Shown: in pieces, positions 4,421 through 30,998 of the stretch | Layout of the letters: every line of letters begins with the position of its first letter | Position numbering within the stretch: the stretch's first letter is position 1 | Source: Nostoc punctiforme PCC 73102 | GTDB lineage: Bacteria; Cyanobacteriota; Cyanobacteriia; Cyanobacteriales; Nostocaceae | Length of the DNA: 32,000 bases | Reading direction: 5' to 3' | NCBI RefSeq assembly: GCF_000020025.1 | Contig: NC_010631.1 | Location: 240,001-272,000 of the forward strand | Made by a program: the position numbers and the translations under genes | The notes under the pieces: generated by a model | Seen by the model: the letters and a program-made list of their open reading frames with translations, nothing else | Told to the model about the DNA's origin: nothing | The model's database searches: none

Positions 4421-4451
4421 CTTTTAACAAAGCCAGGGTAAGTTGAGTTAG

Positions 4452-5810: not shown

Positions 5811-5864
5811 TTAGTAATTTTTTAGAAATGAAATTGCGAAAAAGCAATCTAATCAGGGATTCTC

Positions 5865-8800
5865 ATGCAAGATTTATCCAATATTGACTTATTTTATGCT
5901 TATTTAGACTTAGAAATTAATAGTGAAAATAATATATACCGCATAGGATTGGTATCTCTGAATTTAACAAAAGATTTTTATCAAGAAAATCTAAATCAAG
6001 CTTACGAAGAAATAAGGAAGTTGAAAAATAGTAATTTAGCAGTGTGCGGTCATAACTTCCGCCGCTTTGATTACCCTTATCTGATTGAGCAAGAACAGCA
6101 ATTATCTTCTTGGCACATAATTGACACTTTAGAACTATCAATACTCGCTTTCCCCTTACAGCATTCGCATAAGCTAAATAAATATTATAAGCAAAGTGAA
6201 TATTCAAGTAATAATCCTCTAGAAGACGCACAGGCAACTCGATTATTACTAGGTCAACAATTAGAAGCACTATTTAAAAAGCCTGATGAAGTACAACAGA
6301 TATATATTTGGCTCCTAACTTGTGGTTGCGATGATGCAGACCTTGCATATCAACAATTTTTCAGCGATCACCTTGGTTTGAAGATTGAACAACCCGCCAT
6401 AGAAATGCTGCCAGAAACAATGTTGAAAAGAATAAATCAATCCTATTTGCAGCAGCTATGGTCTAGTCCACAAACTTATGATTTTGAGATAAGATTATGC
6501 GTGGCGGGTTTACTGGCTTGGAACTATGAGTGCAATACCAATGAATCGAAGCAGGTTTTTTGTGATTGGCTCAGACATTTAAATGGTTTTCAAGCTGTAC
6601 TTGAGAATTTGCGTCCTTTAAGTACAGATGAATTCGCTATCAGTTCTTACTTGGAATATTTTGAAATTCCCAGTTTTCGACCTTTGCAGTCAGAAGCTGT
6701 CCAAGCAATTATTAATAATGACCGTCCACTTGTTCTGATGCCTACTGGCGGTGGTAAATCTTTGTGCTATCAATTGCCAGCATTCATGTTCCATGAAAGG
6801 CACAAAGCACTGACTATTGTAATTTCACCGCTACAAGCATTAATGGCAGATCAGGTAGCAGATTTAGAACAAGCTGGGTTTTTCTTTTCCACCTTTATTA
6901 ATGGTAATCTTTCAGCAGCAGAACGCCGCCAACGGCTCGAAGAACTGCGTTTTGGTTCCAAAGGTTTGCTATATATCAGTCCTGAGCAACTGCGGTCAAT
7001 GAGTATTCGGGCATTGCTAGAACAGCGTCCTCCCGTCCTTTGGGTAATTGATGAGGCTCACTGTGTTAGCCAATGGGGTCACGATTTTCGACCAGATTAT
7101 CGCTACATACCAAAATTTATTCAGGAGTTATATCAAGAGCGGCAGCTTGCAATGCCTTTGTTAGCTTTGATGACAGCAACAGCAACAGTCAAAGTTGTTG
7201 AAGATATTAAAAAGCTATTTGCTCAATATCAGTTAAATATTAATCGTACAATTGATGGGGCAATAACCAGAGAAAATCTGACTTTTCAGGTCATTCCAGT
7301 AGCAGGGAATAAAGAGCAAGTCTTACTAGAACAAGTTAAAGAAGCTATTAAACTTGGTGGTAGTACACTAGTTTATACTACTACACGCAAGAATGCCGAA
7401 AAACTGGCAGAACTTCTCAACCAAAGTCATATTAAAGCTAAATACTATCATGGCAAACTTGCAAAAGAAAAGAAACAGGAAGTTTTGCAAGAATTCAAAT
7501 CAGGTAAATTGAACGTAATCACTGCGACTTGTGCATTTGGTATGGGCATTAACCGCAAGGATGTACGAGCAGTTATTCATCATTCCATGAGTGCCAATTT
7601 AGAAGGTTATGTTCAAGAAGCTGGACGGGCAGGGCGTGATGGAGAGCCAGCAGTTTGTACTTTACTATTTGACCCAAAAGATGCTGATACAGTTTTTCGT
7701 TTGCAAAGCTTGAACCAATTGAGCGAACAAGATTTGAAAAATGTCTTGATCTCAACCAGACATATTCGCGATCGCACTTTTGGGAGTGCCAGAGATGATT
7801 GGTTTTGGGTTACAACTAATGAAATCTTTCAAGAGGGCGACTTTGATGAAGAGCTTGGGGAAGATTCAGAACAGCAAAATACTAAAATTAAAGTAGGTTT
7901 GCATTACTTAGAAAACTTCGGTTTATTAGAAAGAGCCGAGAACTTTTCCAGCTTTATCCAATTTGAATTGAGCCATAATACTTTTGCAGAGTCTATGGAG
8001 CAGTTTGAGAAATATAATCAGATTAAGAGTTTATCTCGGTTTGAGGCAGATAACTTTGAGCGGTTGATTCAGGCAATGCACGTTGCTAAAGCTTATTGTA
8101 GTACTAATGATGAACCGTTTCCCCTAGATCGTCTCAGCGATGAAGCTGGCATTAGTTTACATGACCTGACTGCTAGAATTCGAGAACTACAAAGGGCTGA
8201 AGTCTGTTCTTTTGAAATACCAATTACCCTTGTGATTACCAAGGGCGTAAGAGGGGATGCCCGTAAAAACCACGAACGTATTCGTCAGCTAGAAGACCAA
8301 TTGCTCAATGCACTTAATGAGCTATTTGGTAATGAAAATGAAATACAAATAAATCTGCGCGGACTTGCTTCTCGACTCGACCCAGACAATAGTAAAAAAA
8401 TCAGAGCATCCAATATTATAGATATTTTAGAAGGATGGGTTGCTCAAAAATGGGTGAAGTTAAACCGTATAGCTCATGATGTGGTTCGATTGCGCGATAT
8501 AAAAGTTGCAGAGCATTTACCTGAACATAAAATTTTAACAGCTACAGTATTAGAAGTTTTATATCAAGCATTGGCAGATACAACAGGGGCAAGATTACCC
8601 CTGAAGTATGAACTGGGAAGGCTGGCTACTGAAGTTACCCAACAGACTAAACTTGATTGGGATAAGGAAGAGTTGGAGGTTATTCTTCTATGGCTGCACC
8701 AAAGAAAAATAATTCGATTGAGTGACGGACTAAATTTATTCCAACAGTCACTAAAAGTTCGTGTCATAAAAAATGCAAATATTTCCACAGTAACGCGCCG

Positions 8801-11619: not shown

Positions 11620-11667
11620 CGGCTAAAAAGCATAACTGACGAGATTAACTTTCAATCTTACAGGTAT

Positions 11668-11813
11668 TGGTTGCCATTTGTTTGGCGGACTGTGATGCTG
11701 TCCCCATCTGCCACTTGAGTAGCTATCCATTCTTCAGTAAGTGCGATGGATGGCTGGTTAGTTCTTTGGAAAATCAAGATAGCGCTGATGATAGTCCAGC
11801 GATCGCAGTTAAC
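11668..11813 (-). pseudogene. duplicated 5' fragment of the adjacent SNase gene (no start codon, frame broken)
   Basis: About 146 bp are nearly identical to 12232-12378 (codons ~11-59 of the nuclease). Small indels occur near 11780-11800 and the first 10 codons are missing. Confidence 0.75.
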
Positions 11814-11877: not shown

Positions 11878-12408
11878 CTACTTTCGTTTGTCTTGACTCC
11901 ACACTCCAGTCTTAGAAGCGATCGCTAATCTCTGGGCATTCTCGAAAGCTATTTGATTTGGGCATTCCACCCCACCAAGCCGCGTTTTAGCCAAGCCGCT
12001 TTTAAGCAGTTCTTCTTGAAAGCTAATCTCAGTATCGCTCTCTCCACGAGCCATCACTTCAGCAACAGTGCGCCCATCGCTATCTTTTGCCACTGGAATG
12101 ATCATCAGTTGGTTATTGGCAGCAGCGGCTAGCTTAAGCAACTTCTGTTTTGCTTTATTGCTCAATGCTTGTGCTGGCACTTCACCTTGTTTCATTTCTG
12201 GGGCATCAATTCCACAAAGCTCAACTGACATTTGGCTGCCATCGGTTTGGCGGACTGTGATGCTGTCCCCATCTGCCACTTGAGTAGCTATCCATTCTTC
12301 AGTAAGTGCGATGGATGGCTGGTTAGTTCTTTGGAAAATCGAGATAGCGATGATGGTAGCTCCAGCGATCGCAGTTAAGATTACGAGAGTTTTCCACAAT
12401 GGCTTCAT
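11878..12408 (-). CDS. staphylococcal-nuclease (thermonuclease, SNase) family protein with N-terminal signal/anchor
   Basis: N-terminal MKPLWKTLVILTAIAGATIIAISIF, then SNase landmarks DGDSITV, CGIDAPE, DSDGRTVAEV, ELLKSGLA and FENAQRLA..KTGVW. Confidence 0.85.
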   Translation of the reverse strand: MKPLWKTLVILTAIAGATIIAISIFQRTNQPSIALTEEWIATQVADGDSITVRQTDGSQMSVELCGIDAPEMKQGEVPAQALSNKAKQKLLKLAAAANNQLMIIPVAKDSDGRTVAEVMARGESDTEISFQEELLKSGLAKTRLGGVECPNQIAFENAQRLAIASKTGVWSQDKRK

Positions 12409-14704: not shown

Positions 14705-15703
14705 TTACCTCTGTCCCAACAATTGGTTTAGCACATCGGCTAGGCGATAGCCTGCCAAGCTCATTCGACGTTGGGCAATTTGTTTAGCTGTAGCAGCATA
14801 ATTTGCTGGTAAGAGTTTCCCATCATTCTTATCACTACTACCAGAAAGTTTTCCATTTAGATATGCGTCTTGTTTTGCTATTCTAAAGCTTTCCAACTTC
14901 GCCCAGTTATTAAATTTAGTTTCTCTTAATTCAGGTAATTTATTACGTTGGTAAGATGATCTAAGGCTAGTAGCAGCGTTACGAACTGCTTGAAACCTTT
15001 CGCTGCCAAGAATTAGGTCATCCCAGAATTTATGCAAACTAATCGTTTGGCTATTTGGTTTAACTCTAATGTAAAAACGTGTACCGCCTCGATCGCCTTC
15101 TGGTTGTGGGTACTGGTTAGTTATTAGTTTGGTAGTATGCAATGGCTGATGTACATCCCCTATTAAATGGAACAGCCAACATATTGCAACTGCTTTGTCA
15201 CTGTTACTGGCATTGCTTTTAACAACATCAAGGTTTTTTTGGAAAGCAAATATAATATTTTCTTCATCAGGGATTTCACGGGGAATCGAGTTTGAAGCTC
15301 TACCGGGTTGATAAGGAAAGTTAATGTAATGCCAAGTTGGATGATTAAATTCTGGGTTATCACGAGCTTCATCTGCCCATTTTGCTGCCCACATAAACAA
15401 GTACAAGTTTTTATCTTCAGGAGATATATTAGATTGATTAAGAGAGTTCCACTGTTGTTCAAACTTGGAATATTCGGGATGTTCTTTTAAAATAGCCACA
15501 ACTTTATCAAGGTTTTGCTGATTACTTTGCTTAAGTTCACTGTAAGCGATCGCTCCTGAAACCATGTGTCCAGACTTATTCCAAGCAAAAGCTGGGTGCT
15601 GCCAAATCAGGATTGTTGAGAATATTGTCAATAAAGAAAACTTAAGGGAATTTTTTGTTATGAAATAGATTTTTTGAATTGAAAGTCTCTTATTCATAAT
15701 CAT
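14705..15703 (-). CDS. S1/P1-family zinc nuclease, secreted
   Basis: The signal peptide ends ..HPAFA, and cleavage would expose W-NKSGH, the N-terminal Trp that ligands Zn in P1/S1. Also WAAKWADEAR, WHYINFPY, HLIGDVHQPLHT, GGTRF and LHKFWDD. Confidence 0.85.
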   Translation of the reverse strand: MIMNKRLSIQKIYFITKNSLKFSLLTIFSTILIWQHPAFAWNKSGHMVSGAIAYSELKQSNQQNLDKVVAILKEHPEYSKFEQQWNSLNQSNISPEDKNLYLFMWAAKWADEARDNPEFNHPTWHYINFPYQPGRASNSIPREIPDEENIIFAFQKNLDVVKSNASNSDKAVAICWLFHLIGDVHQPLHTTKLITNQYPQPEGDRGGTRFYIRVKPNSQTISLHKFWDDLILGSERFQAVRNAATSLRSSYQRNKLPELRETKFNNWAKLESFRIAKQDAYLNGKLSGSSDKNDGKLLPANYAATAKQIAQRRMSLAGYRLADVLNQLLGQR

Positions 15704-16956: not shown

Positions 16957-17358
16957 ATGACTAACGAGATTACGGAAAAACTTAAACAAGCCTCCGATGG
17001 TTTGTTAATGATGAGCGAATCAGAGTATCCTTTTGAAGTTTTTTTATGGACTAATCAAGCTCAAGAACCAATAACCGCTCAAAAACTTCTCCAACTAACA
17101 GGGCATCCTCAAGATTCGCCAATAGAAGAAGTTGAATTAGAGTATTTTTTTAGGAATTGTGCCTTTGAACAAGAGTGGCATAATGAATTGCAGAAATCAG
17201 ATGTTAAGAAATTTAAAACACTTGTTGAATCCTTGAAAGATAATCTAAAGTCAATCAAGGTTTATCGCATAGGCACAAGAAATATTGATGTCTATATTAT
17301 TGGGGAAACTTTAGATGAAGACTTAGCAGGAATCTCAACAAAAGTTATTGAAACTTAG
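16957..17358 (+). CDS. nuiA: nuclease A inhibitor (NuiA) family protein
   Basis: LKQASDGLLMMSESEYPFEVFLW... and the C-terminal ..VYRIG...DVYIIGET...LAGISTKVIET match my recollection of Anabaena PCC 7120 NuiA, which is about 135 aa. The gene is convergent with a NucA-type nuclease gene. Confidence 0.8.
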   Translation: MTNEITEKLKQASDGLLMMSESEYPFEVFLWTNQAQEPITAQKLLQLTGHPQDSPIEEVELEYFFRNCAFEQEWHNELQKSDVKKFKTLVESLKDNLKSIKVYRIGTRNIDVYIIGETLDEDLAGISTKVIET

Positions 17359-17426: not shown

Positions 17427-18779
17427 TTACAAATTATCAACTTGTGCTTCTATTACAGATTGAATAGATGTTGAAACAAGTGATAAAAAATCGAATCCGG
17501 TTAAAGATTCCAGTGAATCAACACTGACTCGGTAATTTCTCCAGTCAGCAGTCCGAACCCCTTGGGCGTTGGGAATGTTAACTGCAATCACCCTTGTAGA
17601 TGTTGTGACACCAGAGACTCCAGACCCAGGAGTGTCTAAGACAACAAGAATTTTCCAAGTGCGATTGGGAACTGTCACCTTACCACCAGCAATCGTGCTA
17701 AAAGTTCCATTGCTCCCAGTCCCACCTACGCCATATCCACCAGATATAATGTAGAGTTCTTTCCCCTGGCTAACCAGAGTTCTAGCGTAATCTTCTAAAT
17801 TAGCCCAAATCCCCTGATTGTTGTCAGGCGCTTGTGCAATCATGTTACTCATCAAAAAGGTGCTGGAGTTAACCGTAACTGTGCTAGTCCGGTCGCCTGA
17901 AGGGGTCATGTGTCCTCTATCAAATCCACTACCACTAAAATCGGTAGATTGAACTTGATAGCATCCTGCTGGTAAGGTAGTATCCGCACGAAAGTCATCT
18001 TGTCTTGGTGTGCTTCCTAACCAACTACTATTCAACTGCCAAGATACCCAATTGGCTCGTCCTAATGAACAATTGTATCCAACTGCATACTGCGCTTTAT
18101 CCAGCAAATAATTGTTTATATCTGAAGCTCCAGCACCACTGGGATTACCCATTGTTAGGTGTACACTTGTACTACCGCCGCCACCTGAAGTACCATAATC
18201 GGTGATGGTAATATCATCAATGTTAGTTCTGTTGGTAGTACCATCACTCTTGCGGACTTCACAGCGAGATGTGCCAGAGATGTTAGGCGTAAAAGTTGCA
18301 GTCTGTAAAGTTGTTGAACTAGTTGTGACTGTTGAACCTACTTGTAACCATGAAATACCACTATTACTTGAACACCACAACTGCCAATTGGTACTACCAT
18401 CAGAACCAAACTTTGCGTGTTTAATGCTAACTGTACCAGCACCAGTGCTGCGGTCAAATTTCATTGAGACTTTACCACTGTTGCGGATACGTGCAGATTG
18501 TGTACCGCTTTTTGCATCACTGGTAAGATTACCAATCAAGGCATCATCTAAATTCCAAAGACCTGTGCTGAGGGTGACATCAGAGGAAGCATAACTGCCT
18601 TTTGAGCCAGTTTCAAAACCTTCAACAGTCGTTGCACCTTTTGCACTAAATAACGTGTTGAAGGTAATTAGTAAAACTATTACTACTCCTGTCAACCACC
18701 CATTACGATAAACTTTGCGCCAAAAATTAAATAACACTAGGTCTAATTTAACCTCGTAAGTCCAGTAGTCCGTTTGCAT
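17427..18779 (-). CDS. nucA: NucA-type DNA/RNA non-specific endonuclease with N-terminal anchor and about 170-aa beta-sandwich-like extension
   Basis: The catalytic DRGHMTPSGDR (DRGH motif) and downstream ..SNMIAQAPDNNQGIW (metal Asn region) match Serratia/Anabaena NucA. The N-terminal hydrophobic segment is GWLTGVVIVLLITFNTLF. An S/T/G-rich module (aa ~50-195) and a GGGG linker precede the nuclease domain. Confidence 0.85.
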   Translation of the reverse strand: MQTDYWTYEVKLDLVLFNFWRKVYRNGWLTGVVIVLLITFNTLFSAKGATTVEGFETGSKGSYASSDVTLSTGLWNLDDALIGNLTSDAKSGTQSARIRNSGKVSMKFDRSTGAGTVSIKHAKFGSDGSTNWQLWCSSNSGISWLQVGSTVTTSSTTLQTATFTPNISGTSRCEVRKSDGTTNRTNIDDITITDYGTSGGGGSTSVHLTMGNPSGAGASDINNYLLDKAQYAVGYNCSLGRANWVSWQLNSSWLGSTPRQDDFRADTTLPAGCYQVQSTDFSGSGFDRGHMTPSGDRTSTVTVNSSTFLMSNMIAQAPDNNQGIWANLEDYARTLVSQGKELYIISGGYGVGGTGSNGTFSTIAGGKVTVPNRTWKILVVLDTPGSGVSGVTTSTRVIAVNIPNAQGVRTADWRNYRVSVDSLESLTGFDFLSLVSTSIQSVIEAQVDNL

Positions 18780-22547: not shown

Positions 22548-22905
22548 GGTAACAAGAGATTTTATTTGAGGGTTCAATACCTTTGTTAAGAGCAGAGTTG
22601 ACAAGATTTATCGTAAAAACTGCCAAAATTACCTATACACAAGCTCGGAGTTGATAAGGTAACTTGGAATACTATAACTCTTACACTACTGACAATAGGT
22701 TAAAAAACCTCACAGGAAACCTTAAAAGAATTTTAAGGACTCATTGTTTTTGCCAACTTTGTCCCAGAACCGCCCGACTGTACGCCCAATCTCTGCATTT
22801 AGCCAAAACTGCGATGGCACTAGCGCCCGCCGGAGGCGAGCGCACAAGAACAACAAAAGCCGACTCAAGCAGATCGTTGAGTTTTATTCCAAATGAACTG
22901 AGATG

Positions 22906-23118
22906 TTATCCTTCCCAATTGACTAACACCCCATCCACGATCGCAATCCCCCACTGCGGAAACTTCGCCAATAATTTTTCGATCGCAATCTGCAAAGCAG
23001 GGTCATCATTCCAACACTCCTGCAAGAAATCAAACCCCGGATTATGCGCTGAATTCGCCGCAAAGCGTGAGTTTTTGCATACGTTCCGGTCGCAGACTTG
23101 ACCTTGCTACAAAGTCAT
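22906..23118 (-). pseudogene. 5'-truncated, frameshifted copy of the gene family represented by 30489..30998
   Basis: The minus strand reads ..VARSSLRPERMQKL, then a frameshift, then AANSAHNPGFDFLQECWNDDPALQIAIEKLLAKFPQWGIAIVDGVLVNWEG*. The plus-strand track ORF 22664..23101 is its antisense shadow. Confidence 0.6.
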
Positions 23119-23174
23119 AGTAAAACACTTTTCAAACCACTTCTAAACTCTTTTAGAGGATGTTTATAAATTTT

Positions 23175-24206
23175 TCAGGTAGGCTCATTTGAGACTTTAA
23201 TAACCAGTTTCCCCTTTTTGTTACCGTCGAAAAGTTTTAGGATCGCCTTGGGTGCATTTTCCAAGCCTTCGACAATCTCAAGAGCATATTTAATTTGCCC
23301 CTGGTTTAGCCACTTTCCAATCTCTGCTATCGCTTCATGAAATCGGGGAATATAATCCAAGATAATAAATCCCTGGACGAGAGCGCGTTTCATGAGAATT
23401 TGGCTGTAATTATATGGACCAGGAACAGGCTTTGAAGCATTATAAGTTGAGATTAAACCGCATAAAGGCAGGCGGGCGCGCAGATTAATTTTGGTTAGGA
23501 CGGCATCAAGGATTATTCCGCCAACATTGTCAAAATACACATCGATTCCATTGGGACAAGCTTGAGCTAATGCTTTTTCTAAATCTCCAGTTTTATAGTT
23601 AATTGCTGCATCAAAGCCAAGTTCTTCTGTAAGCCAACGGCACTTTTCATCACTGCCAGTTATACCAACTACCCGACAACCCTTAATCTTGGCAATTTGT
23701 CCAACAATGGAACCAACTGCCCCACCTGCTGCTGAAACGACCACAGTTTCTCCAACTTTTGGCTGTCCTATATCTAATAACCCAAAATAAGCTGTAAAAC
23801 CAGTAGCTCCCAGTGGCCCGGTAAATGCGTTGAGTGGACAAGGCAGAGGATTAGGTAATCGCGTCAGCGAAAAGCCGCTGCTTCCAAGGGCGATCGCGTA
23901 ATCTTGCCACCCTAGCAACCCAGAAACCAAATCTCCCTTTTTAAAATTGGGATTTTTGGACTCTTCAACCACACCTATAATACCGCCACGCATAACTTCC
24001 CCAATTTCAACAGGAGGCATATATTGCTCCATATCGCTCATCCAGATCCGATTGGTAGGATCTAGTGACAGATATATAGTACGTACCAGCACCTCATCAT
24101 CTTTTGGGCTGGGGATTGGCTCTTCTCGGTACTCAAAATCGCTTTCTTTAATGTCACCAACGGGACGAGCAGCTAATAGAAACTGTCGATTTATCGCTCT
24201 AGTCAT
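23175..24206 (-). CDS. NADP-dependent medium-chain oxidoreductase (alkenal/one reductase, YncB/CurA-like)
   Basis: Contains the Rossmann motif VSAAGGAVGSIVGQIAKIKGCRVVGITGS. N-terminal RQFLLAARPVG.. and overall length match the leukotriene B4 dehydrogenase / quinone oxidoreductase-like MDR subgroup. Confidence 0.9.
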   Translation of the reverse strand: MTRAINRQFLLAARPVGDIKESDFEYREEPIPSPKDDEVLVRTIYLSLDPTNRIWMSDMEQYMPPVEIGEVMRGGIIGVVEESKNPNFKKGDLVSGLLGWQDYAIALGSSGFSLTRLPNPLPCPLNAFTGPLGATGFTAYFGLLDIGQPKVGETVVVSAAGGAVGSIVGQIAKIKGCRVVGITGSDEKCRWLTEELGFDAAINYKTGDLEKALAQACPNGIDVYFDNVGGIILDAVLTKINLRARLPLCGLISTYNASKPVPGPYNYSQILMKRALVQGFIILDYIPRFHEAIAEIGKWLNQGQIKYALEIVEGLENAPKAILKLFDGNKKGKLVIKVSNEPT

Positions 24207-24300
24207 AAGTTTTTGTTGGGTGTGACTGAGAGTTGGTCAGAGTCAATACAGACTTCCTTGGCTTTTTTTAGGTCTTCTAGCATCATTTTACTTTAGCATC

Positions 24301-24800
24301 TCACTTCACCAGCACCCCATCCATACAAGCAATTCCCCATTGCGAAAACTTAACCAGCAACTTCTTGATCGCAATTTGCAAAGCCTGATCGTCATTCCAA
24401 CACTCCTGCAAAAAGTCAGAACCCGGATTCTACCCCGAATTCGCCGCGACGCAAGAGTTTCTGCACACGCTCCAGTCGCACATTTGACCGTGCAGCAATC
24501 GCCTCATGCGACCATTTTTCAGCACTGGGGACAGACGCGGCGGAACTTTCACCCTCATGATCCGCTTTCATTTCTACACCCGAAACTGAATTTTCAGTCA
24601 TCAACTCAGCAGAGGGGCGACTCGGTTCTATTTTCTGATCTGCGATCGCTTCAGAAGTTGGCAGAAGTTGGACTACTGCCCAAAATTATCGTCGCAGTTT
24701 CCAAGGCTTGGGTGTTGTTCATGGCAACGCTTAGGTTTTTCAGCGCCATGCACATGAGCCGCAGATATTCCTGAGCATTTTCTTTGGGTGGTTCGACAGC
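24301..24800 (-). pseudogene. near full-length but disrupted copy of the 30489..30998 family
   Basis: The minus strand reads ..ENSVSGVEMKADHEGESSAASVPSAEKWSHEAIAARSNVRLERVQKL, then a +1 shift, then NSG*(TAG, 24430-24432)NPGSDFLQECWNDDQALQIAIKKLLVKFSQWGIACMDGVLVK*. There is a further frame break near 24650. Track ORFs 24340..24774(+) and 24416..24604(-) are pieces or shadows of it. Confidence 0.6.
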
Positions 24801-24866: not shown

Positions 24867-27800
24867 ATGGTTCAGGACATCTCACAGAAATTTACCTTAT
24901 GGCTCAAAGTTTCACTTCTCGGTCTCTCCCTACCATTGTTACTTAGCAGTAGTATTCGAGCAGAAGAGTGTACTCCAGCAGATATCAAAGCACAGATTGA
25001 AAAATTTAAAGATGCTAAAACTTTCAAAGCTGCTAATGATACTGTAGTGAAATGTGGTGAAGACGCTATTTCATCTTTAGCAGAAGCCCTAAGTAATAGT
25101 GATGCAGCCACCCGTACTAATGCTGCATCTGCTTTAGGTAAAATGGGTTGGATAGCACAAGATGCTGTTCCTGATATAGTGGAAACACTTGGGGATGGTG
25201 ATGAAAACGTTCGTAGTAGTTCAGTTCGTGCCTTAATTGCTATTGGGAGGTCTGCTCAACAGCAAGCTAATACAATTTCTGAGTTAGATTTAAAAGGAAT
25301 TACTAAATTACAACTTATTAAACGACAAATAGAAAAAGCCCTTGCTCATCTTGATGCAAAACCAAAAGAATGGGCAAATCAAAAACTATTACAGCAAGAA
25401 CTCCGCTTAACTAGGAATGCGCTACAAACCAAGTTAAATCAATTGCAGGATAGAATAATTTCTCGTTTCATTCAGTGGGTAATTAAAAATCCCGGAATAT
25501 TTATATTATTGGCAGTGGCTGCTTATTTGAGTATATTTAGTATTCGTCCATTGTGGTTACTTAGTCTAAATAAAGTATTGCCCCAGACATGGAAAATACC
25601 TATAATCAACCAAGAAATAGCAGTAAAGTGGTTGTTATTTTTAAATTACAAGCCGAGGGTATTAGATACGTGGGTAGAAAAGTATATTGAGCCAGTTAAA
25701 ACAGAATTTTTGCTGAAAGATATAGTCAAGCGTGATAGCGGAAGCCATATTCCGCAACCTGTTGAATTCAAAGACAAAATCAAGTATCCTCAACTTAAGA
25801 ACAACGATAACTCGACAGAAGAAGCACTAGAACACAAAGAACTCCAAAAAGAACTCAAAGCAGAGATGCAGAGAGAGCAACAGTTTTGTGTACTGATTGA
25901 AGGAGAAGGTGGTGCAGGTAAAACCAGCTTGGCCTGTCAAATTGCAAATTGGGGAATAGAAGGTAAGCTTGCTAATCATCGGATATTACCTGTACTCATT
26001 GATCGCGATTTGCAAGACAATGAAGACCTCCTGCAAATGATTCGTAAGCAACTACAAGACCTGACAAATACAGGAAATGACGATATTACTCAAGAATTTC
26101 TCATTCACTTGTTGTATCAGCGACGTGTCTTAGTGATTATTGATCACTTTTCTGAGATGGAAAAGTCAACCCGTAATAAAATCCTTGCTGCAATAACCGA
26201 AAATCCTATTATTAATGCCTTAGTTTTCACATCACGAGTAGTAGGGGAACTTAAAGGTCTGACCAGATCCACTCTCAAACCAATGCGCGTTGAAGGAGAA
26301 CGGATATCAGAATTTCTGGGTGAATATCTTAAGTTATGCAACTACCGTAACCAATTTGATGACGAAGCATTCTATAACGCTTGCTCTCGTCTCAATCGGA
26401 TGGTAGGACAGCGTAAGATTACAATTATGTTAGCAAAGCTCTATGCTGACCAAATGATTGCTACTAAATATAAAGCAGTAGATACAGAACTACCAGAAAA
26501 TATCCCAGACTTAATGCTGAGTTACCTAAATCAGCTTCACCCTAAAGCTGGTTCAGCCCAACAGTTAACAGTTCATCAAGATTTAGAAATCATTGCTTGG
26601 AAGTGTTTAGAAAATACTTACAGTCCTACACCAATTTCTAGGATAACTGCCGAAGAAGCCCTAGTTAGACCCGGTTCAAATGAAATTGATAGCCGTCTCG
26701 ACTACTTACAAACTACTTTGAATATATTACTAAAAATAGAACCAGACAAAGTAAAGATTAATTTAGACCCTTTAGCAGAGTATTTGGCAGGGTTATATCT
26801 AGTTCAACAGTATAAAGATAACGCCGAAGCTTGGCAAAAACTTTTAAACGATATTGATGAAAAATCAGAAAATCTGGAAAAAATTAAAGGCTTTTTGTTA
26901 GCACTGTGGGACTGCTGTGAATTTAAGAAAAATGAGTTTAAAATTCCAGATTTAGTATTTCAGGGATTGCTAAAGAGAGCAAATTTAGATCCAAAAGAAA
27001 TTGAGGCAGAGCAACGGAAACGGCGGATTAAGATATTGATCAATGAGCTTTATACACCAGAGGTAGAATTTCGCATCCGTGCTGTAATTGACTTGCAAAC
27101 AATGGGCAAGGATGCTAATCCGGCTATTCCTCGTCTACGTAAACTTTTGGAAAATAACAGCGAAATAGCAAAAGTTCGCAGAGAAGTTGCTAAAACTTTA
27201 AAGCAGCTTGGGCAACAAAATAGAATGATAATTTTACAAATCGACAATGGAGTAGAGTCGATTCGCCTAGCGGAACATCCACCCACAGAGGAGATATATC
27301 TTGGTGATAAGGTCATATTAGAAATGGTGCGAATTCAAGGCGGTACATTTTTAATGGGCGCTCCAGAAACGGAAGAGTATTCTATGGATTCAGAACGCCC
27401 TCAGCACGAAGTAACTGTTCTCCCCTTCTTTATAGGCAAGTACCCTGTCACCCAAGTACAGTGGCTAGCAGTCACATCTCTGCCTCAAGTTAACCGAGAA
27501 CTTGACCCTGACCCCTCCAGGTTTAAAGGTGCAAATCTACCTATAGAAAAAGTGTCTTGGTACGAAGCAGTTGAGTTTTGCGACCGCCTATCTCAACATA
27601 CAGGAAAAACTTACCGTCTCCCCAGCGAAGCAGAATGGGAATATGCCTGTCGTGCTGGAACTACCACTTCATTCCATTTTGGCGAGACAATCACATCAGA
27701 ATTGGCAAACTATGATACCAGCGAAGTTTCTGGTGTGGGAGTAAAGGGAAGGCATCAAAAAGAAACTACACCTGTGGGTAATTTTGAAGTCGCTAACGCT

Positions 27801-28061
27801 TTTGGGCTATACGATATGCACGGGAACGTATGGGAATGGTGTCTCGACGATTGGCACGATAACTATGAAGGTGCGCCAATAGATGGAAGTGCTTGGTTTA
27901 ATATTTATCACAAACAAGCACATTTTGTACTGCGGGGCGGTTCTTGGTACAACAATCCTAAATTCTGCCGTTCCGCGTATCGTAGCAATAACAACGATCG
28001 CGGCAACCACGGCAACATTACTGGTTTTCGTATTGTCTGCGAGATTAAAAGGATTCTTTAG
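24867..28061 (+). CDS. membrane-anchored STAND/NACHT-like NTPase with HEAT repeats and C-terminal FGE-sulfatase (C-type-lectin fold) domain
   Basis: N-terminal hydrophobic signal LWLKVSLLGLSLPLLLSSSIRA. HEAT/PBS-lyase-like repeats (ATRTNAASALGKMG..AVPDIVETLGDGDENVRSSSVRALIAIG), a coiled coil and the TM helix IFILLAVAAYLSIFSI follow. Walker A is GEGGAGKTSLA (about 25902) and Walker B is RVLVIIDHFSE. A second HEAT pair precedes the FGE domain, from RIQGGTFLMGAP (about 27330) to GFRIV (about 28035). Confidence 0.9.
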   Translation: MVQDISQKFTLWLKVSLLGLSLPLLLSSSIRAEECTPADIKAQIEKFKDAKTFKAANDTVVKCGEDAISSLAEALSNSDAATRTNAASALGKMGWIAQDAVPDIVETLGDGDENVRSSSVRALIAIGRSAQQQANTISELDLKGITKLQLIKRQIEKALAHLDAKPKEWANQKLLQQELRLTRNALQTKLNQLQDRIISRFIQWVIKNPGIFILLAVAAYLSIFSIRPLWLLSLNKVLPQTWKIPIINQEIAVKWLLFLNYKPRVLDTWVEKYIEPVKTEFLLKDIVKRDSGSHIPQPVEFKDKIKYPQLKNNDNSTEEALEHKELQKELKAEMQREQQFCVLIEGEGGAGKTSLACQIANWGIEGKLANHRILPVLIDRDLQDNEDLLQMIRKQLQDLTNTGNDDITQEFLIHLLYQRRVLVIIDHFSEMEKSTRNKILAAITENPIINALVFTSRVVGELKGLTRSTLKPMRVEGERISEFLGEYLKLCNYRNQFDDEAFYNACSRLNRMVGQRKITIMLAKLYADQMIATKYKAVDTELPENIPDLMLSYLNQLHPKAGSAQQLTVHQDLEIIAWKCLENTYSPTPISRITAEEALVRPGSNEIDSRLDYLQTTLNILLKIEPDKVKINLDPLAEYLAGLYLVQQYKDNAEAWQKLLNDIDEKSENLEKIKGFLLALWDCCEFKKNEFKIPDLVFQGLLKRANLDPKEIEAEQRKRRIKILINELYTPEVEFRIRAVIDLQTMGKDANPAIPRLRKLLENNSEIAKVRREVAKTLKQLGQQNRMIILQIDNGVESIRLAEHPPTEEIYLGDKVILEMVRIQGGTFLMGAPETEEYSMDSERPQHEVTVLPFFIGKYPVTQVQWLAVTSLPQVNRELDPDPSRFKGANLPIEKVSWYEAVEFCDRLSQHTGKTYRLPSEAEWEYACRAGTTTSFHFGETITSELANYDTSEVSGVGVKGRHQKETTPVGNFEVANAFGLYDMHGNVWEWCLDDWHDNYEGAPIDGSAWFNIYHKQAHFVLRGGSWYNNPKFCRSAYRSNNNDRGNHGNITGFRIVCEIKRIL

Positions 28062-28099
28062 TAGCTCTTTTTTCATCTTGTACGAAATAACGGATATTC

Positions 28100-29460
28100 T
28101 CGGACTTAGACAAAATAGAGGGGTAAAAAGGGGTATAATTCTTTTTCAGCCTAGCTTTCACGTCAAAGTAAGCTCCCATGAAAGAGACAACTCCCGCCGC
28201 CATGCCTCCATGCTTTGAAAAATGGTGTAAGAGGTTTGATGATGTGTTTACTCATAAAGCTCAAAAAAGAGAGTTCAGGCATTATTTAGGAGGATTATTG
28301 GGTGAAAGCGAGAGAAAAAACCTATTTCAGATAGCAGAAAACGCTATAGGGGTGAATTACTATCAATTACATCACTTTTTAACTGAAGCACCTTGGTCTG
28401 ACTCCAAGATCAATGAACGGCGCTTAGAGATTATGAACAAGTGCAGTCAAACCAGAATTAGTAGAGGATTTAGTTTAATAATTGATGATTCTGGTCATAA
28501 GAAAAGTGGCAATTTTACCGATGGAGTGGGAAGACAATACATTGGAGAAATTGGCAAGACGGATAATGGAATAGTAGTGGTAACAACTCATTTATACGAT
28601 GGGAGAAAAAGCTTACCATTAGATATAGAGTTATATCAGCACGCCAGTTCCTTAAAAGAAGGTAAACAAGACTCAGAGTTTGAGAAAAAACCGGAATTAG
28701 CAATCAAGTTAATAGACAGAACTATCCAGAGGAAATATCAACCAGGGATAGTAATTGTAGATGCGGGATATGGCAACAATACATCTTTCTTAGTAGAGTT
28801 AGAGAAGCGAGAATTAAAGTATTTAGGAGGAGTCGCCAGAAATCGAAAAATAACTATTACTAATGAAGATACTATTCAACAAACAATTAGGCTAGATGAA
28901 TTAGCACAAAGTTTACCCCAAGAGGCTTTTAAAGAAATTCAATTAAACTTAGATAAGCCCAAAACAGTATGGGTATTAACTAGAGAAGTAGAAATATCAC
29001 AATTGAAGGGAAAGCGAAATATTGCCATCGTCATGAATGCAGCGACTTTCTCACAAGCCACCGATATCGACTATTTTATCACCAATGTTTCTTCATCAAT
29101 TGTTACCCCAAAATGGGTAGTTGATACTTATTCTCAACGGAATTGGGTGGAAGTTTTTTATCGAGAAGCCAAAGGGTGGTTAGGATTGAAAGAATACCAA
29201 GTCAGAGAAAAAAGGAGTCTACTGAGGCACTTTATCTTGGTATTCTGTGCCTATACTTTTATTGTTTGGCATCAGATGACAGGCGGCTTGAGACGCAGGT
29301 GGGCAAATAAACCTTTGAATACTTTTACTGAAGCAATAGATGCTTTTAGAACAGCCATGTCTTATCGATTTTTTGATTGGTTGACCCTTAATCGTGACGT
29401 GTTTGCTGCTTATAAAGCCAGTTTAGGCTTTATTTGGGCTTAATTTGCGTTTAAGTCCCA
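28100..29460 (+). mobile_element. IS701-family insertion sequence, copy 2 (diverged; no clear target duplication)
   Basis: The left end (T)CGGACTTAGACAAAAT and the reverse complement of the right end TGGGACTTAAACGCAAAT are a degenerate version of the copy-1 IR. The intact 421-aa transposase is roughly 90 percent identical to copy 1 at protein level and about 85 percent at nt level, by eye. The flanks ttct and ttaa do not match each other. Confidence 0.8.
28178..29443 (+). CDS. IS701-family DDE transposase (copy 2)
   Basis: Collinear with 4528..5793 and the same length (421 aa), with the same DDE/YREK motifs. Confidence 0.9.
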   Translation: MKETTPAAMPPCFEKWCKRFDDVFTHKAQKREFRHYLGGLLGESERKNLFQIAENAIGVNYYQLHHFLTEAPWSDSKINERRLEIMNKCSQTRISRGFSLIIDDSGHKKSGNFTDGVGRQYIGEIGKTDNGIVVVTTHLYDGRKSLPLDIELYQHASSLKEGKQDSEFEKKPELAIKLIDRTIQRKYQPGIVIVDAGYGNNTSFLVELEKRELKYLGGVARNRKITITNEDTIQQTIRLDELAQSLPQEAFKEIQLNLDKPKTVWVLTREVEISQLKGKRNIAIVMNAATFSQATDIDYFITNVSSSIVTPKWVVDTYSQRNWVEVFYREAKGWLGLKEYQVREKRSLLRHFILVFCAYTFIVWHQMTGGLRRRWANKPLNTFTEAIDAFRTAMSYRFFDWLTLNRDVFAAYKASLGFIWA

Positions 29461-29967
29461 TTAATTGCAAGTCGTCACTGAGGTTTTTTTAAAAGCCTCT
29501 AATTTTTCAAAATCCTGCTTTTGGCTACGCGGACGCGGAACTTTGAGCTTGGCTTTGAGCCTGTAACGCGTCAAGTAATGTACAGTTGCGTATTCTGCTT
29601 GCACCCCTAACACAGTATCTAACCAATGTTGAATCTGGGTGTAACGTTGAAATCCACCTTCAGGCTGTTCGAGTTGGTTTTTCAGGCTCGACATTGCCCA
29701 ATTTGGTATTATACGTGTTCGACCTGGACTTGTTCCAAACTCCACAACCGCCTCAATTCCTCTATTTCGATAATCTGCCAACCACCTTTGAACCGTGCCC
29801 CGATGCCTTCCCAAAGTTTTCGCGATCGCACATACATTCAACTGTTAGGCTTTAATCAGATACAGTGCTTATACACGTTCTTTGAGTCGAGCATTTTTCT
29901 GCTGGCGTACTAACGCTTCCAGTTCCTCCACATTTTCTTTGATTTCAATATGTGTTATGCCTGCCAT
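29461..29967 (-). pseudogene. IS630-family transposase N-terminal (HTH) remnant, two in-frame TAA stops, 3'-truncated at the IS701 boundary
   Basis: The minus strand reads MAGITHIEIKENVEELEALVRQQKNARLKERV*ALYLIKA*QLNVCAIAKTLGRHRGTVQRWLADYRNRGIEAVVEFG...KAKLKVPRPRSQKQDFEKLEAFKK. That is the IS630/Tc1-like HTH region. The DDE domain is absent, and the frame runs straight into the IS701 end at 29460. Confidence 0.8.
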
Positions 29968-30410: not shown

Positions 30411-30464
30411 TCAAATTTTTTGCATAAGTCAAAATTATTACAAAACTTTGCATTATTCGTTTTT
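30411..30464 (-). promoter_or_regulatory. conserved about 54-nt upstream element, copy 2
   Basis: tcaaattttttgcataagtcaaaattattacaaaactttgcatt... lies about 49 nt upstream of the start at 30362. See copy 1 at 20197-20250. Confidence 0.4.
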
Positions 30465-30488
30465 AACGCATCACACTTGTTACTCATT

Positions 30489-30998
30489 TTAGTGAACCAA
30501 CACCCCATCCACAATCGCAATCCCCCACTGCGGGAACTTCACCAGTAGCTTCTTGATCACAATCTGCAACACCGGATCATCCCAAGACTCTTGCAAATAC
30601 TCAAACCCCGGATTCTGCCCCGAATTCGCCGCAACCTTGAGTTTCTGCATCCGCCCTGGCCGCATATTTGATCTCGCTACAATCGCCTCATGCGACCATT
30701 TATCAACGACGGGTGCGGCGGAACAAGCACCTTCATGATCTGCTTTGACTTCTACACCCGAAACTGAGTTTTCAACTAACAACGAAGTGGGATTACACTG
30801 TTCTACCTGCCCCTGAGTTTGATTAGCGTAGACGTGAAACGGCTTGTCGCTAGACATCGCTGCATTCGCTAACGACTGAACCAACCGCGCACTATAGAAC
30901 TCCTGCTGTAAAAGAGACAGAACACTCAGCACACTCAATTCAGACCAATCCCCCAAATCCTCGTTGTGCAGAGATATAAAAGAGGTGTCCAAAAGCAC
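30489..30998 (-). CDS. conserved cyanobacterial hypothetical protein (only intact member of a 3-copy family in this window)
   Basis: 169-aa ORF with a GTG start. The C-terminal ..NPGFEYLQESWDDPVLQIVIKKLLVKFPQWGIAIVDGVLVH is shared with the decayed copies at 22906 and 24301. It carries the 35-bp dispersed repeat in frame. Confidence 0.6.
   Translation of the reverse strand: MLLDTSFISLHNEDLGDWSELSVLSVLSLLQQEFYSARLVQSLANAAMSSDKPFHVYANQTQGQVEQCNPTSLLVENSVSGVEVKADHEGACSAAPVVDKWSHEAIVARSNMRPGRMQKLKVAANSGQNPGFEYLQESWDDPVLQIVIKKLLVKFPQWGIAIVDGVLVH
30826..30860. repeat. 35-bp short dispersed repeat, copy B (inside a CDS)
   Basis: gcgtagacgtgaaacggcttgtcgctagacatcgc is 33/35 identical to 13260-13294. 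On the minus strand it encodes ..AMSSDKPFHVYA.. of ORF 30489..30998. Confidence 0.8.

What the first reader, a model, noticed from the sequence alone, without database searches (positions are those of the whole stretch)
24867..28061. Membrane-anchored HEAT-STAND NTPase-FGE domain protein: conflict-system-like sensor architecture
The domain order read from the sequence is as follows. An N-terminal signal or TM segment comes first. Two or three HEAT/PBS-lyase-type repeats follow, then a long coiled coil and a TM helix (about aa 209-225). Next is a P-loop NTPase with GEGGAGKTSLA and hhhhD Walker B (VLVIIDHFSE) plus a helical STAND-like arm. Two more HEAT repeats and an FGE-sulfatase/C-lectin-fold domain complete the chain. 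The FGE domain keeps one Cys (..PKFCRSAYR..) rather than the C-x4-C pair of true formylglycine-generating enzymes, as I recall the catalytic motif. It is therefore probably a ligand-binding sensor, not an enzyme. NTPase plus FGE-type sensor proteins are characteristic of the NTP-dependent conflict or immunity systems described for multicellular bacteria. Here no enzymatic effector is obvious, so the membrane segments themselves could be the output. The gene is followed directly by IS debris.
Basis: partly seen in the sequence, partly recalled or inferred. Interest (0 to 1): 0.7.

Follow-up and report, generated by a model that had tools for sequence, protein, structure and literature searches.

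The report
Membrane-anchored NACHT protein, DGR-type receptor
This is a real, intact Nostoc punctiforme gene for a membrane-anchored NLR-like (NACHT) ATPase whose C-terminal lectin-fold domain ends in a stretch with the signature of retroelement-driven hypervariation. Both the class and this exact protein are already catalogued in the literature, so it is a good example rather than a discovery.

Summary
The order is signal peptide/TM1, HEAT repeats and long helices, TM2, NACHT NTPase with NCH4, HEAT, then an FGE-sulfatase (C-type-lectin) domain lacking the first catalytic Cys.

The protein is ACC85059.1 / WP_012413076.1 of Nostoc punctiforme.
- Framework residues are invariant across 47 homologs, and the interleaved positions are hypervariable.
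- 17 of 18 variable codons are NNY.
- The region, stop codon and 3' flank are homologous to variable regions of complete Nostocales DGR cassettes.
- Mismatches to a Nostoc template repeat fall preferentially on adenines.
- One family member has its own template repeat and Avd gene beside it.

Vallota-Eastman et al. 2020 already list this protein as a remote DGR variable protein, and Kibby et al. catalogue NACHT+FGS "antigen-receptor" proteins.

No reverse transcriptase or template repeat lies in the 32 kb. The G-rich element at the 3' end of the variable region is degraded, and I could not retrieve the genome's own template. Whether diversification is still active is therefore open. No partner or effector gene is conserved, so output through the membrane-proximal N-terminal module is inferred, not shown.

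The parts
24867..28061 (+). CDS, 1064 aa; identical to ACC85059.1 / WP_012413076.1 / UniProt B2JAV5 (Nostoc punctiforme)
24891..24962 (+). N-terminal signal peptide or TM1 (aa 9-32; ...SSSIRA|EEC, an A-x-A-type site conserved in homologs)
   Evidence: hydropathy; alignment; helix 8-25 in the model
24975..25268 (+). Predicted extracytoplasmic HEAT repeats (aa 37-134), with a conserved Cys35/Cys63 pair just before and within them
   Evidence: Pfam; Cys conservation 27/28 and 26/28; model
25290..25451 (+).
25479..25562 (+). TM2 membrane anchor (aa 205-232; conserved YLGIF..RPLWLLKL)
   Evidence: A hydrophobic segment upstream of Walker A is present in 133 of 150 clade representatives
25572..25856 (+). 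Conserved juxtamembrane alpha/beta segment (aa 236-330) with no Pfam family
25869..26291 (+). NACHT nucleotide-binding domain (aa 335-475). Walker A at 25902-25925, Walker B at 26127-26156
26295..26993 (+). Helical and winged-helix arm of the STAND module (aa 477-709), including NCH4 (aa 666-709, nt 26862-26993)
27030..27221 (+). Cytoplasmic HEAT repeats (aa 722-785)
27225..28037 (+). All-beta extension (aa 787-830) plus FGE-sulfatase / C-type-lectin-fold domain (aa 819-1057). The first catalytic Cys is replaced by N1029; C1034 is kept
27930..28040 (+). DGR-type variable region (aa 1022-1058: LRGGSW YNN P KF CRSA Y R SNNND R GNHGNIT GFRIVC)
28041..28075 (+). 3' end of the variable-region homology, including the stop codon. 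GAGATTAAAAGGATTCTTTAGTAGCTCTTT corresponds to GGGGTTGGGAGGATTCTTCAGTAGCCCTTT of genuine Nostoc DGR targets. The G-rich (IMH-like) run carries G->A changes
28097..29464 (+). Intact IS701-family insertion sequence 36 bp downstream of the stop codon. It is not part of the system but bounds it

Best explanation
The gene encodes a single-polypeptide, membrane-anchored bacterial NLR-related (NACHT-clade STAND) protein.

Topology (inferred): a cleavable signal peptide exports a short HEAT/helical ectodomain. One TM helix anchors the protein. The rest lies in the cytoplasm: juxtamembrane segment, NACHT ATPase, NCH4 arm, HEAT repeats and an FGE/C-type-lectin domain.

Receptor (partly shown): the lectin-fold domain is not an enzyme. 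It is a ligand-binding receptor of the TvpA/DGR-variable-protein type. Its last ~37 codons are a variable region that was written by adenine-specific mutagenic retrohoming from a Nostoc-type DGR template.

Mechanism (inferred from how STAND/NLR proteins work, not shown here): binding of a cytoplasmic ligand to the variable lectin surface releases autoinhibition. The ligand is most likely a phage or other invader component. The NACHT module then exchanges nucleotide and oligomerises. Clustering of the N-terminal TM, juxtamembrane and ectodomain parts delivers the output at the membrane, as growth arrest or abortive infection or as a trans-membrane signal. No enzymatic effector domain and no conserved partner gene exist.

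Whether the region is still being rewritten by the resident chromosomal DGR (Npun_F4889-F4892) is open. The degraded G-rich 3' element and the absence of a template repeat within 32 kb lean towards a currently frozen specificity.
For: Shown:
- NACHT identity: Pfam NACHT, NB-ARC and NCH4 above their cutoffs. Walker A, Walker B and the extra acidic residue are invariant. Foldseek places the NTPase module nearest NOD2 (E 6e-10), NLRC4 and NLRP7.
- Non-enzymatic FGE fold: best solved relatives are PvdO and the DGR variable protein TvpA. The first catalytic Cys is absent in 0 of 46 homologs.
- Variable-region signature: framework positions have entropy <=0.8 bit and interleaved positions 2.6-3.3 bit, inside the otherwise most conserved domain. 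In the window 17 of 18 variable codons are NNY against 48% elsewhere, p=5e-5, and most variable-region codons in the ten loci are also NNY.
- Homology to genuine DGR targets: the region aligns at 83% to the template repeat of the complete DGR of Nostoc sp. UHCC 0926 (L134), better than to that cassette's own variable regions. 9 of 33 template adenines are mismatched against 6 of 79 other bases, p=0.008. The stop codon and 3' flank are homologous to the variable-region side, not the template side, of that cassette.
- A family member with its own cassette: P0041 (L006) has a template repeat with 13 of 16 A->N mismatches and a bAvd gene next to it.

From the literature:
- ACC85059.1 is listed as a remote variable protein, 'CLec & P-loop NTP hydrolase', putative non-cytoplasmic (PMC7517822).
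- The N. punctiforme DGR is expressed and shows low-level A-mutagenesis at its two local targets (PMC12691664).
- NACHT+FGS is described as an antigen-receptor-type bNACHT.

Topology support: two conserved hydrophobic segments, an A-x-A site, and a Cys pair conserved in the ectodomain.

No conserved neighbour was found in ten loci. Several loci lie beside defence genes: Gabija-like genes, AIPR, restriction enzymes, and a MoxR plus VMAP ternary system.
Against: - No experiment links any NACHT-FGS protein to defence. PADLOC has no model that matches.
- There is no reverse transcriptase, Avd or template repeat in the 32-kb window.
- The cognate N. punctiforme template could not be retrieved, so adenine specificity was tested only against a heterologous template. 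6 of 15 mismatches there are not at adenines.
- The G-rich element at the 3' end of the variable region is altered (GGGGTTGGG -> GAGATTAAA).
- Several orthologs look decayed: the C057 copy is split into two CDS, and the Calothrix copy stops inside the variable region.
- In 88 of 150 representatives of the same NACHT clade there is no C-terminal sensor at all, but there is a large ectodomain. In the clade as a whole the N-terminal part may therefore be the sensor.
- The charge bias around TM2 is not decisive (1.66 against 1.91 K+R).
Confidence: 0.6

Rival explanations
1. Outside-in transmembrane receptor. The exported HEAT/helical ectodomain senses a periplasmic or envelope cue such as phage adsorption, cell-wall damage or a kin signal. 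It drives NACHT oligomerisation across the membrane. The cytoplasmic HEAT-FGE part is then an adaptor that binds a variable cytoplasmic target, not the trigger.
For: - The TM-juxtamembrane-NACHT-NCH4 core defines a large clade, with 650 representatives at E<=1e-30.
- In the 150 closest representatives, 133 keep the membrane anchor, 105 have >=250 aa before the core, and 88 end within 40 aa after NCH4. The ectodomain is then the only candidate sensor.
- The ectodomain Cys pair is conserved.
- Kibby et al. propose periplasmic or intramembrane sensing for TM-bearing bNACHTs.
Against: - In the window protein the ectodomain is short (~170 aa).
- In the short-form relatives (P0028-P0045) it is almost absent while the FGE domain is kept.
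- In known STAND proteins the sensor lies C-terminal to the NTPase.
- A hypervariable surface fits a sensor better than an adaptor.
Confidence: 0.15
2. Relic target. The gene is a former DGR target, dispersed by plasmid and IS traffic, that is no longer diversified. It works at most as a fixed-specificity receptor, or it is on the way to pseudogenisation.
For: - No template repeat, Avd or reverse transcriptase lies within 32 kb.
- The G-rich 3' element of the variable region is degraded relative to genuine targets, and CAG->TAG shortens the protein by one codon.
- An IS sits 36 bp downstream.
- Only 1 of 10 family loci has an adjacent template repeat.
- The C057 ortholog is split and the Calothrix ortholog is truncated in the variable region.
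- The published 'remote variable protein' label rests on a threshold of only >=50% identity.
Against: - The 1064-codon frame is intact with every catalytic and framework residue conserved.
- DGRs of this cyanobacterial lineage do use remote targets more than 100 kb away.
- The resident DGR is active.
- The cognate template and its 3' element were not seen, so the 'degraded' element may simply match a different template.
Confidence: 0.3
3. Enzyme, as the database name 'SUMF1/EgtB/PvdO family nonheme iron enzyme' implies. This would be a formylglycine-generating, sulfoxide-synthase or PvdO-like catalytic protein regulated by an ATPase.
For: - FGE-sulfatase Pfam hit at 188.8 bits.
- The best NCBIfam hit is PvdO at 160 bits.
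- The best solved relative is PvdO, 5hha.
Against: - All NCBIfam equivalog cutoffs are missed by far: PvdO 160 against 500, EgtB 85 against 360.
- The first catalytic Cys of FGE is absent in the whole family.
- There is no DinB-type iron-binding domain as in EgtB or OvoA.
- No sulfatase or pyoverdine genes occur in any of ten neighbourhoods.
- The would-be active-site loop is the hypervariable region.
Confidence: 0.03

Closest known systems
Bacterial NACHT (bNACHT) proteins of the 'antigen-receptor type' with a C-terminal FGS domain (Kibby et al., bioRxiv 10.1101/2022.07.19.500537; Kaur et al. 2020, PMC7159879)
   Same: - A central NACHT module with an NCH-type helical extension and a C-terminal FGE/FGS domain proposed to be DGR-diversified.
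- Enrichment in multicellular cyanobacteria.
- TM-bearing variants are mentioned.
   Different: - The tested antiphage bNACHTs have enzymatic or adaptor N-terminal effectors and no FGS domain.
- Here the N-terminus is a signal peptide, HEAT ectodomain and single TM anchor, with no enzymatic effector.
- No NACHT-FGS protein has been tested experimentally.
[quoted passage not shown] 2020, PMC7517822), including the N. punctiforme DGR Npun_F4889-F4892 (PMC12691664)
   Same: - This exact protein (ACC85059.1) is listed there as a remote variable protein with CLec + P-loop NTPase/NB-ARC + ARM/HEAT, putative non-cytoplasmic.
- The variable region sits at the 3' end of a CLec/FGE domain.
- It shares its framework with cassette targets of Nostoc sp. 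UHCC 0926 and Fischerella NIES-4106.
   Different: - It is not inside a cassette, and no template repeat, Avd or reverse transcriptase lies within 32 kb.
- It is the only entry in the 'CLec & P-loop NTPase' column among 21 genomes.
- Adenine mutagenesis has been observed only at the two cassette-internal targets, not at this gene.
Treponema denticola TvpA (PDB 2Y3C)
   Same: FGE-subtype C-type-lectin fold with an N-terminal beta extension, a variable region at the C-terminus, and no FGE activity. It is the second-best solved match by sequence and by fold.
   Different: TvpA is a stand-alone surface lipoprotein with no NTPase. Identity is only about 26%.
Thiohalocapsa PB-PSB1 DGR-3 targets (NACHT + CLec; Dore et al. 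2024, PMC10907252)
   Same: A central NACHT fused to a DGR-diversified CLec domain, uncharacterised N-terminal extensions, predicted TM segments, and a proposed antigen-sensor role.
   Different: Those targets are in a gammaproteobacterium, lie inside the DGR locus, are duplicated, and sit next to an S8 peptidase with WD40 repeats. No such neighbour exists here.
Animal NLRs NOD2, NLRC4 and NLRP7
   Same: They are the best structural matches for the NBD, helical and winged-helix module. The predicted logic is the same: an ATP-dependent switch with a C-terminal sensor.
   Different: 13-16% identity. They have LRR sensors and CARD/PYD effectors and are soluble, not membrane-anchored.
True formylglycine-generating enzymes (SUMF1, T. 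curvata and S. coelicolor FGE)
   Same: Same fold, and the second Cys (C1034) and the RGGSW / CRSA framework are conserved.
   Different: The first Cu-binding Cys is replaced (N1029) at a hypervariable position in all homologs. No sulfatase context.

Membership tests
NACHT-clade STAND NTPase | Walker A GxxxxGK[ST] | tested here: met
   GEGGAGKT at aa 346-353, invariant in 65 sequences
NACHT-clade STAND NTPase | Walker B hhhhD followed by a second conserved acidic residue (the D-x-x-x-E equivalent of DGxDE) | tested here: met
   VLVIIDHFSE; D426 and E430 invariant
NACHT-clade STAND NTPase | Profile match above the curated threshold, plus a NACHT-specific C-terminal helical domain | tested here: met
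   PF05729 31.0 bits (cutoff 26.7); PF22731 NCH4 66.7 bits (cutoff 27)
NACHT-clade STAND NTPase | NBD-helical-winged-helix fold closest to NACHT proteins rather than other AAA+ or STAND clades | tested here: met
   Foldseek: NOD2 at E 6e-10, NLRC4 at 2e-8 and NLRP7 rank ahead of Apaf-1, plant NLRs and ORC. Model pLDDT 83
NACHT-clade STAND NTPase | NTP-dependent oligomerisation switch | not testable with these tools
   Needs biochemistry
DGR target (variable protein) | Variable region at the 3' end of a C-type-lectin/FGE domain, with an invariant framework and hypervariable AAY-derived codons | tested here: met
   Entropy pattern; 17 of 18 variable codons NNY, p=5e-5; mostly NNY codons across ten loci
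DGR target (variable protein) | Cognate template repeat in the same genome differing from the variable region essentially only at adenines | tested here: inconclusive
   - Against the heterologous Nostoc UHCC 0926 template: 83% identity, 9 of 33 A sites against 6 of 79 non-A sites mismatched, p=0.008.
- The N. punctiforme template was not retrievable.
- The literature calls the protein a remote variable protein on a >=50% identity criterion.
DGR target (variable protein) | Reverse transcriptase, Avd and template repeat nearby | tested here: not met
   None in the 32-kb window. They are present next to one family member only (L006: bAvd + template repeat). Remote targets are known in this DGR lineage
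DGR target (variable protein) | Intact 3' homing element (IMH) matching the template's | tested here: inconclusive
   The 3' end is homologous to genuine Nostoc variable regions, but the G-run is altered (GGGGTTGGGAGG -> GAGATTAAAAGG). The cognate element is unknown
Formylglycine-generating enzyme (SUMF1/FGE) | FGE-sulfatase fold | tested here: met
   PF03781 188.8 bits; Foldseek hits to FGEs
Formylglycine-generating enzyme (SUMF1/FGE) | Cu-binding catalytic Cys pair (C-x4-C) | tested here: not met
   N1029 replaces the first Cys; 0 of 46 homologs have Cys there
PvdO / EgtB / OvoA / SenA equivalogs (the database name) | Score above the NCBIfam equivalog cutoff | tested here: not met
   PvdO 160 against 500; EgtB 85 against 360; SenA 68 against 420; OvoA 58 against 400
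vWA-MoxR (VMAP) ternary conflict system | Adjacent MoxR ATPase, vWA protein and VMAP | tested here: not met
   Absent from the window. A VMAP protein, a MoxR ATPase and a 974-aa protein with a KAP-type NTPase hit lie next to the C057 ortholog only, so this is not a conserved linkage
Known anti-phage defence system (PADLOC) | Match to a PADLOC model | tested here: not met
   Only a weak HEAT-repeat hit (PDLC01150, 21 bits)

The most novel reading that the evidence does not exclude
The gene belongs to a large clade of type-I membrane-anchored NLR-like proteins that has not been discussed as a group in the papers I could read: signal peptide, extracytoplasmic HEAT array, one TM helix, a conserved juxtamembrane segment, then NACHT-NCH4. 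The clade has 650 50%-identity clusters at E<=1e-30.

On this reading the NACHT switch couples events on the two sides of the cytoplasmic membrane. The window's subfamily would be the special case that adds a cytoplasmic, retroelement-diversifiable lectin receptor. One protein would then carry a germline-type outer sensor and an adaptive-type inner sensor. The membrane-proximal module, not an enzyme, would execute the response.
Probability: 0.2. Interest if true: 0.6.

Novelty: already known. Interest (0 to 1): 0.3.

Why it matters
NACHT proteins with DGR-diversified lectin domains are the closest bacterial analogue proposed so far to a somatically diversified antigen receptor wired to an NLR switch. 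None has been tested.

This one sits in a genetically tractable model organism (N. punctiforme) whose DGR has been seen to mutate its local targets at a low level. It is a single-gene system with no partner to reconstitute, and it is membrane-anchored. That makes it a convenient test case for two questions:
- Do remote targets get rewritten?
- What does an effector-less, membrane-tethered NLR do when it fires?

As a genome-scan finding it confirms existing catalogues rather than extending them.

Tried and rejected
1. Search for the template repeat with an IUPAC pattern (every non-A base of the variable region allowed to be itself or A) in genome contigs. The pattern also matches poly-A and masked runs.
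2. The corrected pattern in metagenome contigs gave 0 hits.
3. Fetching the N. punctiforme plasmid or chromosome:
   - P0001 is not in the gene-position index.
   - The plasmid collection lacks this replicon; the best hit is 84.5% identity to Nostoc sp. C057.
   - A search with the UHCC 0926 DGR reverse transcriptase returned 120 relatives at >=74% identity, none from N. punctiforme.
   - The genome's own template repeat therefore could not be compared.
4. Supplements of DGR surveys searched for template sequences: none are held.
5. A literature search for 'NCH4' returned only unrelated glioma cell lines.
6. A whole-protein profile against PDB sequences was swamped by designed HEAT/Armadillo proteins and did not report NACHT chains. 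Fold search did.
7. A conserved partner or effector gene was looked for in ten loci and none was found.
8. The enzyme reading (FGE, EgtB, PvdO) was rejected on cutoffs and the missing Cys.
9. The charge bias around TM2 was not decisive.

Full report
**The observation**

Profile searches confirm each named domain:
- HEAT repeats at aa 69-129 and again at about aa 722-785.
- NACHT (31.0 bits, cutoff 26.7) and NB-ARC over aa 326-457.
- The NACHT-specific helical domain NCH4 at aa 666-709 (66.7 bits).
- FGE-sulfatase at aa 819-1057 (188.8 bits).

Two hydrophobic segments (aa 9-27 and 205-232) are present and recur in most of the homologs. Walker A (GEGGAGKT) and Walker B (VLVIIDHFSE) are invariant at the key residues in a 65-sequence alignment.

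An AlphaFold2 model built on that alignment (mean pLDDT 83.1, pTM 0.59) reproduces the order: N-terminal helix, HEAT helices 37-134, two long helices 142-195, TM helix 209-226, a small alpha/beta juxtamembrane segment, a P-loop domain, helical and winged-helix domains, HEAT helices 733-780, a five-stranded beta extension 787-830, and the FGE fold.

Aligned to the true FGE of T. curvata, the first catalytic Cys falls on N1029 and the second is C1034. No homolog has Cys at the first site, and 45 of 46 keep the second.

The one inaccurate detail concerns what follows the gene. It is an intact IS701-family element (28097-29464), and only after that comes an IS fragment.

**Identity**

The protein is 100% identical to ACC85059.1 / WP_012413076.1 / UniProt B2JAV5 of Nostoc punctiforme, on a 354,564-bp replicon. 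From memory that is the size of plasmid pNPUN01 of strain PCC 73102. I could not verify this, because the replicon is absent from the plasmid collection.

**The missed feature: a DGR variable region**

In an alignment of 47 full-architecture homologs the C-terminal ~37 residues show a strict alternation. Framework residues (RGGSW, P, CRSA, R, GFRVVC) are invariant, with entropy at or below 0.8 bit. Interleaved positions are hypervariable at 2.6-3.3 bit. This sits inside what is otherwise the most conserved domain of the protein.

At the DNA level the variable codons are NNY: TAC AAC AAT .. TTC .. TAT .. AGC AAT AAC AAC GAT .. GGC AAC CAC GGC AAC. That is 17 of 18, against 48% NNY in the rest of the gene (p=5e-5). 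Most variable-region codons in the ten family loci I fetched are likewise NNY. This is what adenine-specific mutagenesis of an AAY-rich template produces. Ordinary drift would do the opposite and vary third positions most.

Two complete DGR cassettes on Nostocales plasmids share about 74% nucleotide identity with the window's FGE domain. They are L134 (Nostoc sp. UHCC 0926) and L132 (Fischerella NIES-4106). In L134 the annotated order is trypsin-like peptidase, AAA/MoxR ATPase, a ~977-aa FGE-family target, an FGE-only target, Avd, reverse transcriptase, then the template repeat. In L132 only the reverse transcriptase is named.

The L134 template repeat (10230-10360) matches its own two variable regions with 13 of 16 and 13 of 15 mismatches at template adenines. 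It matches the window's region at 83%, better than the cassette's own variable regions do. Over the 112-nt core, 9 of 33 template adenines are mismatched against 6 of 79 other bases (p=0.008). Four of the six non-adenine differences are C-to-T changes, three of them synonymous third-position changes, as expected if the true template is a close relative rather than this one.

The homology continues through the stop codon into the 3' flank, and it follows the variable-region version, not the template version: AGGATTCTTYAGTAGCYCTTT.

One family member, P0041 (L006), has its own template repeat 1.4 kb downstream (13 of 16 mismatches A-to-N) and a bAvd gene beside it. The family is therefore a genuine DGR-target family, and the window gene's C-terminus is a product of that process.

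**Is it still being diversified?**

This is not settled.

Against:
- There is no reverse transcriptase, Avd or template repeat in the 32 kb.
- Only 1 of 10 family loci has an adjacent template.
- The G-rich run at the 3' end of the variable region, where homing elements lie in characterised DGRs, reads GAGATTAAAAGG instead of GGGGTTGGGAGG.
- Two orthologs look decayed.

For:
- The reading frame and every motif are intact.
- DGRs of the cyanobacterial lineage use targets more than 100 kb away.
- N. punctiforme has one chromosomal DGR (Npun_F4889-F4892) that is expressed and shows low-level adenine mutagenesis at its two local targets.
- Vallota-Eastman et al. list this protein as a remote variable protein of that element, though on a criterion of only >=50% identity.

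I could not obtain the genome's own template. My first collection scan was badly designed and matched poly-A. The cap then blocked a better one, and the other routes failed.

**The NTPase and its clade**

Foldseek puts the NTPase module nearest NOD2, NLRC4 and NLRP7, ahead of Apaf-1, plant NLRs and ORC. This agrees with the Pfam NACHT and NCH4 calls.

A full-library search with aa 200-720 (TM2 through NCH4) finds 650 50%-identity clusters at E<=1e-30, most aligned over the whole query. Among the 150 closest representatives:
- 133 have a hydrophobic segment just upstream of the P-loop.
- 104 have an N-terminal hydrophobic segment.
- 105 have at least 250 residues before the core.
- 88 end within 40 residues after NCH4.
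- Only 8-9 carry an FGE domain.

In the relatives listed the long region between the two hydrophobic segments is a HEAT array. The common plan of the clade is thus signal peptide, large ectodomain, TM, NACHT-NCH4. The window protein is the minority form, with a short ectodomain and an added cytoplasmic HEAT-FGE module.

**Topology**

Topology is inferred. The NACHT domain needs cytoplasmic nucleotide. With two membrane-spanning segments (or a cleaved signal peptide plus one anchor), the HEAT/helical part between them must be extracytoplasmic. A conserved A-x-A-type site and a Cys35/Cys63 pair conserved in 27 of 28 and 26 of 28 sequences fit an exported, disulfide-bonded domain. The charge bias at TM2 does not decide it.

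**Context**

Neighbours differ in every locus:
- Arginine, glutamyl-tRNA and heme genes with a Gabija-like pair in Cylindrospermum.
- Glycine-cleavage genes in Calothrix.
- An RT-Cas1 CRISPR locus in Fischerella PCC 9605.
- SNF2, AIPR, methylase and toxin-antitoxin genes in L131.
- VMAP and MoxR genes with an adjacent KAP-type NTPase protein, a restriction enzyme and AIPR in Nostoc C057.

No sulfatase, no conserved effector and no conserved partner appears. PADLOC has no matching model. In the window the gene lies between an oxidoreductase gene with flanking repeat fragments and the IS. A helicase with DpdF/PsyrT- and GajB-like domains lies 14 kb upstream and shows no sign of linkage.

**Mechanism**

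Shown:
- It is a NACHT-clade P-loop protein with intact motifs.
- Its C-terminal domain has the FGE/C-type-lectin fold without the catalytic pair.
- That domain ends in a DGR-type variable region.
- It has two conserved hydrophobic segments.
- It stands alone genetically.

Inferred from the behaviour of STAND/NLR proteins and DGR variable proteins (Kaur 2020, Kibby 2022, Dore 2024):
- The variable lectin surface binds a ligant in the cytoplasm.
- Binding releases the NACHT module to oligomerise.
- The clustered TM, juxtamembrane and ectodomain part is the output.

The main rival is that the ectodomain is the sensor, as it must be in most clade members. The two readings are not exclusive.

**Comparison with what is known, and novelty**

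- NACHT+FGS proteins are catalogued as 'antigen-receptor-type' bNACHTs.
- STAND proteins with FGE-sulfatase sensors are modelled in a 2026 survey.
- NACHT-CLec DGR targets with TM segments are described in Thiohalocapsa.
- This exact accession is in a published table as a remote variable protein with P-loop/NB-ARC, ARM/HEAT and CLec domains and a non-cytoplasmic prediction.

The finding is therefore already known at the level of annotation. What has not been done is any experiment on this architecture. I also found no explicit description of the membrane-anchored HEAT-ectodomain NACHT clade as a group in the papers I could read.

**Verdict**

Novelty is low and interest is 0.3.

Noticed in passing
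window 4449-5813 and 28097-29464: Two IS701-family insertion sequences, 84% identical to each other. Each has an intact 421-aa DDE transposase and terminal inverted repeats. The second starts 36 bp after the NACHT-FGE stop codon.
   Followed up: partly
window 22879-23135, 24265-24605, 30453-30783: Three copies (61-85% identical) of a ~250-340-bp element that matches part of ORF 30489-30998(-) (169 aa, no Pfam or PADLOC hit). They look like pseudogene fragments of an unknown repeated gene. Two flank the oxidoreductase gene 23175-24206(-), and one lies just upstream of the NACHT-FGE gene.
   Followed up: no
window 11878-12408(-), 14705-15703(-), 16957-17358(+), 17427-18779(-): A cluster of nucleases: SNase-like, S1/P1 nuclease, and a NucA-type non-specific endonuclease with its NuiA inhibitor gene next to it.
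   Followed up: partly
window 5865-10892(+): A 1675-aa fusion helicase. A RecQ-like DEAD/Helicase_C module is followed by a UvrD/UvrD_C module. It has strong PADLOC hits to DpdF/PsyrT and GajB helicase models, so it may be defence-related. It lies directly after the first IS copy.
   Followed up: partly
window 11667-11794 and 12232-12359: A 128-nt direct repeat at 95% identity. One copy lies inside the SNase-like gene and the other downstream of it.
   Followed up: no
L128 (Nostoc sp. C057 plasmid p057_J) 14777-18094: The closest ortholog (84.5% nucleotide identity) is annotated as two CDS (a HEAT part and an FGE part), so it is probably disrupted. It lies beside a VMAP protein, a MoxR ATPase and a 974-aa protein with a KAP-type NTPase hit, plus an XcyI restriction endonuclease and an AIPR gene.
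   Followed up: partly
L129 (Calothrix sp. MO_167.B12) 5989-9132: The ortholog P0003 ends prematurely inside the variable region (...CRSACRINDLR*).
   Followed up: no
L006 13160-14514: A DGR remnant next to family member P0041: a bAvd gene, then a 234-aa ORF on the opposite strand that I did not identify, then the template repeat. No reverse transcriptase was called within 10 kb.
   Followed up: partly
L134 10230-10508 (Nostoc sp. UHCC 0926 plasmid pn2): The DGR template repeat is annotated in RefSeq as a 'hypothetical protein' CDS, which is probably an annotation artefact.
   Followed up: no
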